NCBI RefSeq assembly: GCF_963921235.1
Contig: NC_086097.1
Coordinates: forward strand, 11,656,001-11,720,000
Source: Mobula hypostoma
Lineage: Eukaryota
Direction of reading: 5' to 3'
DNA: 64,000 nt
The notes under the pieces are model-generated. The model saw nothing but the letters and a program-made list of their open reading frames with translations, had not been told where the DNA came from and searched no databases. Shown here piece by piece: positions 27,255 through 28,334 of this stretch. Positions within the stretch are counted from its first letter, which is position 1, and each line of letters begins with the position of its first letter. A program made the position numbers and the translations under genes.

Positions 27255-27485
27255 AAGATCCATCATCATGGACCACCAGCATCCAGGCCATGTTTGCTTC
27301 TCATTCCTGCCATCAGGTAGGAGGTACAGGATCCTTAGATACCACATCACCAGGTCCAGGAACAGTTATTACCCTTCAACCTGAGGATTCTGAACCAGTG
27401 TGGATAACCTGGATCACCTCAACACTGACCTGATTCTACAACTTATGGACTCACTTTCAATTACTGTACAATTCATGTTCTCGAT
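27255..27485 (+). mobile_element. Rex1/Babar 3' fragment
   Basis: SIIMDHQHPGH..LPSGRRY remnant. Confidence 0.6.
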
Positions 27486-27880
27486 TAACAATAGACAAAC
27501 AATATGGCTTACGTCAGACGTGAATTGCAAATTATTTAAAATGGAATTGGACACTGGCTCAGCTGTCTACAAAATGACTTTGAATGGCATTTCAGAAATG
27601 CTAAACAGAAACCTGCAGATATTCAACTAAGAACTTATACTGGAGAAAAGACAACTCCTGTGGGAATGACACCTGTAACAATGAAGTACAACAACCAACA
27701 AGTCACAATGAGCTTGTATGTGGTAAAAACAGAAGGACCAGCTTTGTGGGGGCCTGATCGGCTGAGACAACCACAACTCGTTTGGAGATCCATTCACTAT
27801 TTGTGTGCTACATTCCCTGCAATGAAACCAACTGAAAGTGAATTAAGAAAGTCACTGGATGATGCCACAACTGTCTTCAT
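27485..27880 (+). pseudogene. Ty3/Gypsy aspartic protease remnant
   Basis: IWLTSDVNCKLFKMELDTGSAV (DTG motif), LRTYTGEK, LYVVKTEGPALWG, ELRKSLDD; frameshifted. Confidence 0.85.
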
Positions 27881-27881
27881 G

Positions 27882-28180
27882 CTGAGCACCATGAACCTTT
27901 GGTGCCAACCTCTGTGCTTCTGGTTGGAAAACACATTGGACCAATGAAGGACTGAAAGTGATGAAAGCAGTGGTCCGACTACTAGATTTTGTAGGCAACA
28001 TACCTGAGAAAGCTCCTGATATGTTGATCAGGAAGTTGCTTGTGAAATGTGGCTTGGTTTTAAGCTGGGAGAGTGCTCAGGAAGCGTCAGGAAAGTTGTA
28101 TTCACTTGACTTTTGTGGTTATAAAGAACAGAATCTACTCTGTGCATTAATGTTATTGCATGAACTTCAAGTAGGAGCTT
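27882..28180 (+). pseudogene. RBM25: Processed RBM25 fragment (N-terminal RRM) captured inside a Gypsy element
   Basis: LVPTSVLLVGKHIG..., DESSGPTT, FVGNIPEKAPDMLIRKLLVKCGLVLSW...ASGKL..FC.YKE...LLHELQVG closely matches RBM25 as I recall it (FVGNISEKASDMLIRQLLAKCGLVLSWKRVQGASGKLQAFGFCEYKE...LLHDLQIG); frameshifts, no introns. Confidence 0.88.
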
Positions 28181-28199
28181 ACAGCTAAGCAGGGAGTAG

Positions 28200-28238
28200 T
28201 GTTTTGTATTTAATATTTTAATAAGATTTGAGTAATAT

Positions 28239-28280
<42 letters not shown>

Positions 28281-28334
28281 TATACACACACACACACTTA
28301 ATTAAACTATATATTATTTAATTAAGCATTCTTA
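28200..28334 (+). mobile_element. Partial 3' LTR of the Gypsy/RBM25 element (contains a TG/TA/CA microsatellite)
   Basis: Purine tract AAGCAGGGAGTAG(28187-28199), then TGTTTTGTATTTAATATTTT...TAAGCATTCTT, homologous to 49761-50015 and 28789-29029(-). Confidence 0.75.

What the first reader, a model, noticed from the sequence alone, without database searches (positions are those of the whole stretch)
27485..28334. Gypsy LTR retrotransposon that has transduced a spliced host RBM25 (splicing factor) RRM in place of its pol gene
Seen: the Gypsy protease remnant (MELDTGS...ELRKSLDDATTVF) switches abruptly at ~27880 into RBM25 coding sequence (VPT..VGKH, GPTT, FVGNI..KA.DMLIR.LL.KCGLVLSW, LLHELQVG). 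It then runs directly into a purine tract and an LTR at 28200; RT, RNaseH and integrase are absent. From my recollection of the vertebrate RBM25 gene, this stretch crosses at least two introns, so it came from mRNA. Inference: template-switch capture during reverse transcription, as in retroviral transduction, created a non-autonomous LTR family that carries and could amplify a splicing-regulator RRM. The same LTR recurs at 49761, so the LTR family is dispersed. This copy is frameshifted, but others could express a PR-RRM chimera or RBM25-targeting small RNAs.
Basis: partly seen in the sequence, partly recalled or inferred. Interest (0 to 1): 0.8.

Follow-up and report, generated by a model that had tools for sequence, protein, structure and literature searches.

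The report
Jumping gene carrying captured RBM25 fragment
This stretch is a broken, long-dead copy of a virus-like jumping gene that once swapped its own copying enzymes for a spliced piece of the host's RBM25 splicing-factor gene and then spread, apparently to thousands of copies, through this vertebrate genome.

Summary
Window 27484-28333 is a truncated copy of a ~2.9 kb non-autonomous Ty3/Gypsy-type LTR element. Full copies read 5'LTR-PBS-gag-protease-[RBM25 cDNA]-last ~50-75 pol codons-PPT-3'LTR; RT, RNase H and integrase are gone. The insert matches, base for base, eight consecutive exons of the host's own RBM25 gene (contig C1, ~99.80-99.83 Mb) with all seven introns removed, so it came from spliced mRNA. 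All 30 loci examined share the protease|RBM25 junction, and the 20 that hold the 3' tail share that junction too, so there was one capture event. Copies have their own LTR pairs, TG..CA ends and, where readable, 5-bp target duplications, so the chimera itself retrotransposed. 150 of 150 scored loci are intronless RBM25 copies; first-look candidate counts run to 5,000-7,700. The fusion was in frame at origin, but copies now differ by ~20% with no codon-position bias, and 23 of 25 carry stops: an old burst, now decaying neutrally. The window copy lacks gag and the 5'LTR, has an internal deletion, and abuts a second, inverted copy; the family LTR recurs at 49761-50015. Its 5' junction falls exactly on an exon boundary. 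The capture mechanism is already known (LTR-mediated retroposition, retroviral-style transduction). What is unusual is the copy number in a vertebrate. No autonomous partner was found.

The parts
27484..27872 (+). Aspartic-protease coding remnant of the element (MELDTGS..ELRKSLDDATT). The family match begins abruptly at 27484, so gag and the 5' LTR are missing from this copy.
   Evidence: tblastn of gag-pol polyprotein P0123, residues 281-420, 53% identity, E 1e-30. 11 full copies align from 27484/27486.
27873..27897 (+). Remnant (first 25 nt) of host RBM25 exon Z. The capture junction is ACT|GTC at 27872|27873. About 26 nt (the rest of exon Z and the first 3 nt of exon A) are deleted after 27897.
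   Evidence: Read against host exon Z (L048 9633-9586). The junction is shared by 30 of 30 loci.
27899..28044 (+). RBM25 exon A equivalent (VPTS..VGKH..GPTT..FVGNI..DMLIR), with a 20-nt deletion.
   Evidence: blastn to the host spliced exons.
28045..28102 (+). RBM25 exon B equivalent (KCGLVLSW..), joined directly to exon A. The host's 1,738-bp intron is absent.
   Evidence: The host intron is confirmed by spliced contigs in 4 of 4 runs.
28103..28177 (+). First 78 nt of RBM25 exon C (..LLHELQVG), joined directly to exon B. The host's 2,778-bp intron is absent. The family match then jumps to the PPT, an internal deletion of the rest of the insert and of the pol tail.
   Evidence: The paralogous copy L043 has the same deletion.
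28178..28199 (+). Polypurine-tract region (..AGCTAAGCAGGGAGTAG) immediately 5' of the LTR.
   Evidence: Matches the 26 nt upstream of the 3' LTR in L033, L034, L035, L039 and L042. Sequences compared.
28200..28333 (+). 3' LTR remnant. The LTR start TGTTTTGTATTTAATATT.. lies at 28200-28240, a (TG)n/(TA)n microsatellite at 28241-28307, and a short further LTR piece at 28308-28333.
   Evidence: blastn of family LTRs.
28326..29029 (-). Second, inverted partial copy of the same family. It comprises a 5' LTR (29029-28802), the PBS/5'UTR/gag start (28801-28538) and a gag fragment (28381-28326), with a SINE-like repeat at 28383-28523 in between.
   Evidence: blastn of full elements and LTRs; sequence read; SINE-like family D2/I4.
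49761..50015 (+). Isolated LTR of the same family (TGTTG...ATAACA). No internal sequence is attached and no readable target duplication was seen.

Best explanation
The finding is a decayed, 5'-truncated and internally deleted copy of a chimeric, non-autonomous Ty3/Gypsy-type LTR retrotransposon. In the founder, the stretch from the start of RT to near the end of integrase (about residues 420-1245/1270 of a related polyprotein) was replaced by ~0.95 kb of spliced host RBM25 mRNA: a 48-nt upstream exon, the RRM exons, the Glu/Arg-rich region, and 31 nt of the next exon. The insert was joined in frame to gag-protease. The chimera kept its LTRs, primer-binding site, polypurine tract, gag and protease. 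It could therefore be packaged, reverse-transcribed and integrated by RT and integrase supplied in trans by a related autonomous element. It went through one old burst of retrotransposition that left many copies (thousands by first-look candidate counts), and these have since decayed neutrally. The RBM25 piece is most likely a passenger. Shown: the anatomy, the spliced origin from the host's own gene, the single capture event, and independent LTR-type insertions. Inferred: mobilisation in trans, and the capture route. That route was either two template switches inside the particle, or read-through and splicing from a provirus upstream of exon Z followed by one switch.
For: Family: a 721-nt query across the junction gave 42 matches from 40 scored loci, out of 5,372 first-look candidates, at 72-88% identity. 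40 of the 42 rows span the junction.

Full copies: 11 of 13 ten-kb loci show ~190-250-nt direct terminal repeats about 2.6-3.8 kb apart, 79-85% identical within an element.

LTR hallmarks: TGTTG..TAACA ends; PPT AAGCAGGGAGGAG before the 3' LTR; a TGG-type PBS (TTGGTGACGAGGT) after the 5' LTR; 5-bp flanks matching 4 of 5 in L032, L040 and L042.

Gypsy identity: copies match P0123 (1,319 aa; RVT_1, RNase H, Integrase_H2C2 and rve in that order) over residues 1-419. In the two copies where tblastn detected the tail (2 of 11), they also match residues ~1271/1296-1319.

RBM25 identity.

Host gene and exons.

Exon-by-exon nucleotide colinearity with introns absent. The host introns Z-A, A-B and B-C are confirmed by spliced contigs in 3, 4 and 4 of the 4 runs laid.

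Shared junctions: 30 of 30 loci at the 5' junction. The tail probe was found in 20 of 30 loci, and in each it is preceded by RBM25-derived purine-rich sequence.

Copy number: 150 of 150 scored loci hold a contiguous match to RBM25 residues 68-258, from 5,039 candidates. The gag probe gave 7,661 candidates, with all 40 scored loci matching.

Origin in the host lineage: copies differ from the host exons by a median K2P of 0.164 and from each other by a median p of 0.198. They share the host's lineage-specific exon Z and residues such as KDHAAQRN.ESDESSG.
Against: No autonomous partner with matching LTR, gag and protease was found. The best RT-bearing loci belong to other families, so trans-mobilisation and the exact parental sequence at the breakpoints are inferred.

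Copy number rests on first-look candidate counts, which the tool says are not copy numbers. Only 40 to 150 loci per search were actually scored.

Target duplications were readable in about 5 elements: 3 match 4 of 5, 1 is ambiguous (L039) and 1 does not match (L031). L040 lies inside a tandem repeat, which weakens its case.

Pfam did not recognise the window's own frames, and the protease hits on family members fall below Pfam's cut-off (E 0.0025-0.0036).

The tRNA that matches the PBS is only recalled (possibly tRNA-Ser-GCT) and was not tested.

The 'passenger' reading rests on neutral decay after insertion. That says nothing about selection on the active lineage during the burst.
Confidence: 0.9

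Rival explanations
1. Capture route A: two microhomology-guided template switches inside the virus-like particle (the Tan et al. 2016 model). Minus-strand synthesis began on element RNA, jumped to a co-packaged RBM25 mRNA within exon G, copied it back to exon Z, and jumped back to element RNA at the protease/RT boundary.
For: pol is replaced rather than interrupted. Only part of the mRNA is present, with no poly(A), and the 3' junction lies inside an exon, 31 nt into exon G. Relatives read ..VF at the breakpoint (P0123 AAPVF; L052 EEVF), so a parent ..ACT GTC TT. would share about 4 nt (GTCT) with the start of exon Z. Tan et al. report microsimilarity at 25 of 29 junctions, median 6 bp (PMC5131818, passages read).
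Against: The 5' junction coincides to the base with the first nucleotide of exon Z, right after its AG acceptor. A random switch point would do this only a few percent of the time. The parental sequence is unknown, so the microhomology is a guess.
Confidence: 0.45
2. Capture route B: retroviral-oncogene-style transduction (the read-through model of Swain and Coffin, named in Tan et al.). A parent element sat in the RBM25 intron upstream of exon Z in sense orientation. A read-through transcript was spliced from a weak donor at the protease/RT boundary (ACT|GTCTT.) to the exon Z acceptor and on through the RBM25 exons. One illegitimate template switch, from a co-packaged normal element RNA into exon G, then restored the 3' end.
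For: This route explains why element sequence stops, and host sequence starts, exactly at an exon's first base, with no intron bases. Exon Z is a genuine spliced exon: contigs join it to exon A in 3 of 4 runs laid. Yet it is absent from the 110 of 120 fetched RBM25 relatives that held the anchor motif and could be checked, so its acceptor is real but not universal. The route needs only one non-homologous switch. The fusion is in frame with gag-protease, as in gag-onc fusions.
Against: The presumed donor ACT|GTCTT is a poor splice site and is only inferred from relatives. No family LTR or gag remnant was found in the ~41 kb of the host gene that I could fetch, but only 367 nt upstream of exon Z were available.
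Confidence: 0.4
3. DNA-level origin: a LINE-made processed RBM25 pseudogene landed inside a Gypsy copy, and later deletions produced the chimera, which was then mobilised.
For: The genome is rich in LINEs, including an intact 1,006-aa LINE ORF 1 kb away. Nested insertions are common here.
Against: None of the 20 tails examined holds a poly(A) or a 3' UTR. The insert ends in coding sequence 31 nt into exon G and starts at an internal exon. About 2.5 kb of pol is precisely replaced and the reading frame is preserved. This route would need at least three independent events.
Confidence: 0.04
4. One-off retrocopy or local duplication: the RBM25 piece is unique to this locus, or to a segmental duplication.
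For: The nearest copy (88% identical, 46 kb away, inverted) shares the same internal deletion and the same PPT/LTR start, so those two do derive from one already-broken copy by local duplication.
Against: 39 other scored loci on many contigs share the junction. Flanks differ between copies beyond the LTRs. 150 of 150 scored loci carry the intronless insert.
Confidence: 0.01

Closest known systems
LTR-mediated retroposition / chimeric retrocopies inside LTR retrotransposons (Tan et al. 2016, Genome Res, PMC5131818; abstract and passages read, supplements not seen)
   Same: An intronless, partial host mRNA replaces an internal part of an LTR element. There is no poly(A). The insert is often in frame. 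The chimera can behave as a non-autonomous LTR element and be retroposed again. [quoted passage not shown]
   Different: In the passages I read, the reported cases are single or few-copy young loci. Here one chimera amplified to at least 150 verified loci, and apparently thousands, and the copies are old (~20% pairwise divergence). The 5' junction falls on an exon boundary. Microsimilarity at the junctions could not be measured because the parent is unknown.
Maize Bs1 and rice LTR elements carrying host gene fragments (cited within PMC5131818 as Elrouby and Bureau 2001, 2010 and Wang et al. 2006; those papers not read)
   Same: An LTR retrotransposon that transduced spliced host gene fragments, retains gag, and lost its enzymes.
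   Different: Plant versus vertebrate host. Bs1 is low-copy (recalled). Here a single gene fragment is fused in frame to gag-protease, and the copy number is very high.
Acutely transforming retroviruses (gag-onc transduction; Swain and Coffin 1992 model, cited in PMC5131818, paper not read)
   Same: The architecture is LTR-gag-[spliced host cDNA in frame]-short 3' viral remnant-LTR. Replication genes are replaced, so a helper is needed. The 5' junction is compatible with a read-through/splice origin and the 3' junction with an illegitimate switch.
   Different: This is a germline, endogenous Ty3/Gypsy element with no env and no sign of infectivity or of any cellular effect. It became fixed as a dispersed repeat family rather than a rare somatic virus.
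Non-autonomous LTR elements that keep gag (TR-GAG, LARD and TRIM types; recalled, with TRIM and non-autonomous LTR papers seen only in the listing)
   Same: LTR, PBS and PPT plus gag but no RT or integrase, amplified in trans to high copy number.
   Different: Those elements carry no recognisable host gene. This one also keeps the protease and carries ~0.95 kb of RBM25 coding sequence.
Host RBM25 gene (G000 contig C1, ~99.79-99.83 Mb, minus strand)
   Same: The insert is 81-88% identical in nucleotides to exons Z-D of this gene, in the same order and frame.
   Different: The insert has no introns and lacks the N-terminal Pro-rich exon, everything after 31 nt of exon G, and the PWI domain. The copies are interrupted by stops and indels.

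Membership tests
LTR retrotransposon (structural definition) | Two direct long terminal repeats flanking an internal region | tested here: met
   11 of 13 ten-kb loci have paired ~190-250-nt direct repeats 2.6-3.8 kb apart, 79-85% identical. The window copy keeps only the start of the 3' LTR.
LTR retrotransposon (structural definition) | LTR termini 5'-TG..CA-3', with a PBS just after the 5' LTR and a polypurine tract just before the 3' LTR | tested here: met
   TGTTG...TAACA ends. TTGGTGACGAGGT-type sequence directly follows the 5' LTR, and AAGCAGGGAGGAG directly precedes the 3' LTR, in the readable copies. The tRNA identity of the PBS was not tested.
LTR retrotransposon (structural definition) | Short target-site duplication flanking each insertion | tested here: inconclusive
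   5-bp flanks match 4 of 5 in L032 (TAGAG/CAGAG), L040 (CACAC/CACAT, inside a tandem repeat) and L042 (TAACC/TAATC). L039 is ambiguous, L031 does not match, and the rest are unreadable.
Ty3/Gypsy (Metaviridae) | gag and protease homologous to polyproteins with domain order PR-RT-RNase H-IN | tested here: met
   Copies align to P0123 residues 1-419 at 31-67% identity across segments. P0123 holds gag-asp_proteas 297-383, RVT_1 504-645, RNase H 708-839, Integrase_H2C2 950-1003 and rve 1037-1110.
Ty3/Gypsy (Metaviridae) | Own RT placing it in the Ty3/Gypsy clade | not testable with these tools
   RT is absent from all 11 full copies, and the autonomous parent was not found.
LTR-mediated chimeric retrocopy (Tan et al. 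2016) | Intronless host mRNA segment replacing internal element sequence, with a discontinuous element on both sides | tested here: met
   Exons Z, A, B, C, D, E, F and part of G are contiguous between the protease and the pol tail.
LTR-mediated chimeric retrocopy (Tan et al. 2016) | Microsimilarity between element and mRNA at both switch points | tested here: inconclusive
   The parent sequence is unknown. Relatives suggest up to ~4 shared bases (GTCT) at the 5' junction. The 3' junction lies in purine-rich sequence.
LTR-mediated chimeric retrocopy (Tan et al. 2016) | Further rounds of retroposition as a non-autonomous element | tested here: met
   Identical junctions occur at 30 of 30 loci, which have different flanks and their own LTR pairs.
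LINE-mediated processed pseudogene | 3' end of the mRNA with a poly(A) tail, long target duplications, no LTRs | tested here: not met
   The insert ends 31 nt into exon G and runs directly into pol-tail sequence in the 20 of 30 loci where the tail was found. No A-tract is present.
RBM25 (functional gene or paralogue) | RRM with best matches to RBM25 | tested here: met
   L042 frame: 302 hits at E<=0.001; the named ones among the 120 listed are RBM25; RRM_1 E 1.8e-5.
RBM25 (functional gene or paralogue) | Complete open frame with the N-terminal region, ER-rich domain and C-terminal PWI domain | tested here: not met
   Only the part from exon Z to 31 nt of exon G is present. The PWI exons map solely to the host gene (9 candidates, 3 matches, all at C1 ~99.79-99.80 Mb). 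23 of 25 copies have in-register stops.

The most novel reading that the evidence does not exclude
The captured RRM plus Glu/Arg-rich domain was not a mere passenger. As an in-frame Gag-protease-RBM25 fusion it may have given this defective element its unusual success, for example by binding or retaining its own unspliced RNA, by steering particles to splicing-factor compartments, or by interfering with host RBM25. That would make it a germline transposon counterpart of a gag-onc fusion. A weaker form of the idea: some of the copies still act as RBM25-related transcripts or small-RNA sources that touch RBM25 regulation. My data do not exclude this. They show neutral decay only after insertion. 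They leave unexplained a third-codon-position excess in copy-versus-host differences (0.201 versus 0.149 and 0.133), which could come from the host gene or from the active element lineage.
Probability: 0.1. Interest if true: 0.8.

Novelty: new member of a known kind. Interest (0 to 1): 0.5.

Why it matters
Capture of host mRNA by LTR elements is documented in animals, but mostly as isolated young loci. Here a single captured splicing-factor fragment was carried to a very high copy number in a vertebrate genome, so one ancient accident left at least 150, and apparently thousands, of RBM25-like RRM sequences. This has three practical consequences. Gene finders and homology searches in this and related genomes will report spurious RBM25-like hits. 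The family is a ready-made marker for dating and for comparing related species. Its two contrasting junctions (exon boundary at the 5' end, mid-exon at the 3' end) give an unusually clean natural test of how LTR elements and retroviruses pick up host genes. It also brought to light a 48-nt RBM25 exon that is spliced in RNA-derived contigs but absent from the RBM25 proteins of other vertebrates that I fetched.

Tried and rejected
- Pfam on the window's four frames: no meaningful hit.
- Word-based protein search with the window's 97-aa frame: 52 candidates, none significant. I switched to a better-kept copy.
- Search for the autonomous parent. P0123 against the genome gave 49 matches from 35 scored loci out of 75,819 candidates. 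The two best (L050, L051; 4.86 kb, 199-nt LTRs) share no nucleotide similarity with the family at E<1e-6. Three further protease regions (L052-L054) belong to another family, with only 38-78-nt patches at 71-89%. None of the 40 scored gag-DNA hits lies next to any of the 35 scored RT-bearing loci, by my comparison of coordinates.
- Family remnants in the host RBM25 locus: none in L044-L049, but only 367 nt upstream of exon Z were in hand.
- Junction-spanning proteins elsewhere: phmmer of a 109-aa protease/Z/A fusion frame against 1.84 billion representatives gave 40 hits. 39 align only to the RBM25 part. One (P0172) is an unrelated repeat protein.
- RNA evidence: no listed holder of the host-gene stretch is on record as RNA.
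- tRNA (0 genes, whole window) and Rfam (0 matches, 26500-29500) scans.
- Earlier scan notes: nothing on this genome or sequence.
- Literature. 'RBM25' with 'LTR retrotransposon' gave 6 papers, none relevant by title or abstract. 'RBM25' with 'retrocop' gave 1 paper, irrelevant. 'non-autonomous LTR retrotransposon / gene fragment / captured' listed no animal case like this among the 15 shown.
- My own early reading that the window had no LTR (after) was wrong and was corrected.
- Considered and dropped: a single inverted element explaining the + and - fragments at 27484-29029. The L043 paralogue shares only the + part.
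Full report
**What is in the window**

Window 27475-27878 aligns to residues 281-420 of P0123 at 53% identity, E 1e-30. P0123 is a 1,319-aa gag-pol polyprotein found with a family member's gag-protease frame. Its Pfam layout is aspartic protease 297-383, RVT_1 504-645, RNase H 708-839, integrase zinc domain 950-1003 and rve 1037-1110.

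At 27872|27873 (..GCCACAACT|GTCTTCATGCTG..) the sequence switches to RBM25. From there to 28177, 242 of 304 aligned bases match the host's spliced RBM25 exons.

The window's own frames are too decayed for Pfam or a word-based search. They gave only a weak RRM match, to CstF-64 at E 0.007. A better-kept relative (L042, 137 aa) gave 302 proteins at E<=0.001; the named ones among the 120 listed are RBM25, best 5e-36. Pfam RRM_1 scored E 1.8e-5 on the same frame.

**It is a repeat family, and the window copy is a fragment**

A 721-nt query across the junction found 42 matches from 40 scored loci, out of 5,372 first-look candidates, at 72-88% identity. 40 of the 42 rows span the junction. Among the other copies, homology runs about 1.3 kb further upstream and 0.7-1.5 kb further downstream than in the window.

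In 11 of 13 ten-kb loci, the family unit is bounded by direct repeats of ~190-250 nt, 79-85% identical within an element. These repeats begin TGTTG and end TAACA. The 3' one is preceded by AAGCAGGGAGGAG. The 5' one is followed by TTGGTGACGAGGT-type sequence. These are LTRs with a polypurine tract and a primer-binding site. That the PBS may fit tRNA-Ser(GCT) is only my recollection and was not tested.

Five-base flanks match 4 of 5 in L032, L040 and L042. L039 is ambiguous, L031 does not match, and the others could not be read.

**Anatomy of full copies**

tblastn with P0123 matches residues 1-419 (gag with its CCHC knuckles, then protease) in the copies. It matches residues ~1271/1296-1319 (the C-terminal ..RYPTRIHNPPKRLDL) in the two copies where the tail was detectable. 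Nothing matches residues 420-1270, so RT, RNase H and integrase are gone. In their place lies the RBM25 insert.

**The insert is spliced host mRNA**

The host RBM25 gene lies on contig C1 at about 99.79-99.83 Mb, on the minus strand. It was located through its PWI-domain exons and an internal exon, then mapped by tblastn.

At nucleotide level the 11 full copies align, in order and abutting, to these exons:

| Exon | Host locus coordinates | Length |
|---|---|---|
| Z | L048 9633-9586 | 48 nt |
| A | L048 6160-5990 | 171 nt |
| B | L048 4251-4194 | 58 nt |
| C | L048 1415-1255 | 161 nt |
| D | L047 6430-6254 | 177 nt |
| E | L047 200-117 | 84 nt |
| F | L049 ~6652-6317 | Glu/Arg-rich |
| G (first part) | L049 5226-5196 | 31 nt |

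Seven introns are missing. Three of them (3,425, 1,738 and 2,778 bp) are independently confirmed as introns by contigs that join Z-A (3 of 4 runs laid), A-B (4 of 4) and B-C (4 of 4) with GT..AG ends. The kind of these runs is only guessed, but they contain spliced contigs.

Exon Z reads VSMLYTMNRCPTEGKQ in frame. It is absent from the 110 of the 120 fetched RBM25 relatives that held the anchor motif and could be checked.

Many copies carry different deletions within the low-complexity E-F region.

**One capture, many insertions**

The protease|exon Z junction is present in 30 of 30 loci. 28 show the motif ..CCACAACT|GTCTCC.. or a point variant of it, and 2 have small local changes.

A probe for the start of the pol tail was found in 20 of 30 loci, always directly after RBM25-derived purine-rich sequence. 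Copies that keep the region show ..GATCCAG|AGAGAAAAG..GGAGAAGAAAGGT|GTCCAGAGCTG... There is no poly(A).

A protein query for RBM25 residues 68-258 matched 150 of 150 scored loci contiguously at 55-76% identity, out of 5,039 candidates. By my count, 22 of the 150 rows have no stop inside the match. The longest open frame listed is 381 aa. A gag DNA probe gave 7,661 candidates, with all 40 scored loci matching at 74-79%. The tool states that candidate counts are not copy numbers, so 'thousands' is an estimate.

**State of the copies**

The junction is in frame (GAT GAT GCC ACA ACT | GTC TCC ATG). Several copies still read protease-Z-A in one frame.

Against the host exons Z-D, copies are 81-88% identical, median K2P 0.164. 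Mismatch rates by codon position are 0.149, 0.133 and 0.201 (three truncated loci aligned poorly and inflate the totals slightly).

Between copies (25 copies, 300 pairs; I dropped L001, L002, L025, L027 and L029), the median p-distance is 0.198 with a range of 0.155-0.267. Rates by codon position are 0.210, 0.193 and 0.197, so there is no codon bias. 23 of 25 copies carry in-register stops.

This is the pattern of one old burst followed by neutral decay. The third-position excess against the host is what purifying selection on the host gene since the capture would give, though I could not assign it. Any age in years would rest on an assumed rate, so I give none beyond 'old'. Within-element LTR divergence of about 15-21% agrees with the copy-to-copy distance.

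**Back to the window**

Family LTRs and whole elements were aligned to the window.
- After exon C stops at 28177, the sequence jumps to the polypurine tract (28178-28199) and the first ~40 nt of the 3' LTR (28200-28240).
- A microsatellite follows, and then a short LTR piece at 28308-28333.
- A second, inverted partial copy follows directly: a gag piece at 28381-28326, 5'UTR/PBS at 28801-28538, and a 5' LTR at 29029-28802. A SINE-like repeat sits inside it at 28383-28523.
- An isolated family LTR lies at 49761-50015.

The nearest relative is 88% identical, lies 46 kb upstream and is inverted. It shares the same internal deletion and the same PPT/LTR start. Those two copies are therefore a local duplication of one already-broken copy.

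**How the capture happened (inferred)**

The 3' junction lies 31 nt inside exon G, in purine-rich sequence, as expected for an illegitimate template switch.

The 5' junction falls exactly on the first base of exon Z, with no intron bases. Two routes fit.
- Route A is two microhomology-guided switches within the particle, the model of Tan et al. 2016 (PMC5131818; abstract and passages read). Relatives read ..VF at this point, so a parent ..ACT GTC TT. would share GTCT with exon Z.
- Route B is a provirus upstream of exon Z whose read-through transcript was spliced to the exon Z acceptor, followed by a single switch. This is the oncogene-capture route, which that paper cites as Swain and Coffin 1992.

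I cannot separate the two. The parent element was not found. Only 367 nt upstream of exon Z were available, and they hold no family remnant.

**Comparison with what is known, and novelty**

The kind is known: LTR-mediated retroposition in animals (Tan et al. 2016), Bs1-type elements in plants, and gag-onc transduction in retroviruses. The latter two are known to me from that paper's citations and from recall. Tan et al. also note that such chimeras can act as non-autonomous elements.

I found nothing in print on RBM25 in this role (listing). No junction-spanning protein turned up among 1.84 billion representatives. The scan's earlier notes hold nothing either. I did not see the supplementary tables of Tan et al., which list their fish and bird cases.

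I file this as a new member of a known kind. It is notable for its copy number in a vertebrate, for the in-frame gag-protease-RBM25 fusion, and for the exon-boundary junction.

**Left open**

Whether the founder had one long open frame, and whether the insert was under selection during the burst, is therefore not answered here.

Noticed in passing
window 29317-32337 (+): An uninterrupted 1,006-aa frame with endonuclease-like and reverse-transcriptase-like motifs (..YRPVSLTSVVGK.., ..FQKAFDKVPH..). It looks like an intact LINE ORF2, about 300 bases past the inverted family copy (ending 29029) that abuts the finding. Related 3' ends recur at about 7990, 13580, 26000, 38390, 55940 and 61980 (repeat families D1 and D3).
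   Followed up: no
window 1-162, 28383-28523, 52899-53038, 57859-57994, 63700-63866: A ~140-160-nt SINE-like repeat with copies 92-97% identical to each other, much younger than the RBM25-carrying family. One copy sits inside the inverted family copy.
   Followed up: no
L048 9586-9633 (host RBM25 gene, G000:C1:99832586-99832633, minus strand): A 48-nt in-frame exon (VSMLYTMNRCPTEGKQ) with good splice sites, joined to the next exon in contigs of 3 of 4 runs. It is absent from the 110 fetched RBM25 relatives that could be checked. It may be a lineage-specific or alternative exon. Two fish RBM25-like predictions (P0161, P0168) carry a different extra segment at the same position.
   Followed up: partly
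L043 4333-4431 and 5446-5544 (oriented; G000:C1 ~11.637 Mb): The paralogue of the window copy is bracketed by 99-nt direct repeats that are 94% identical and do not belong to the family. It may be a piece carried within another repeat or a local tandem duplication.
   Followed up: no
L050 (G000:C50:36857300-36865300) and L051 (G000:C18:105047000-105055000): Two 4.86-kb autonomous Gypsy-type elements of another family, 88% identical to each other, with 199-nt LTRs (91% identical within L050). Both carry several stops. The genome gave 75,819 first-look candidates for this polyprotein type.
   Followed up: partly
L040 3128-3390 and 6110-6510 (oriented): One family copy is inserted in a tandem array of ~110-nt units (..CCCTTTAACCACAC..), so its flanks resemble each other beyond any target duplication.
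   Followed up: no
L048 position 6122 (host exon A), runs X1 and X2: 12-15 separate contigs per run carry a variant base over exon A at 90% likeness or more. This would fit reads from family copies being present in those runs, as DNA or as RNA.
   Followed up: no
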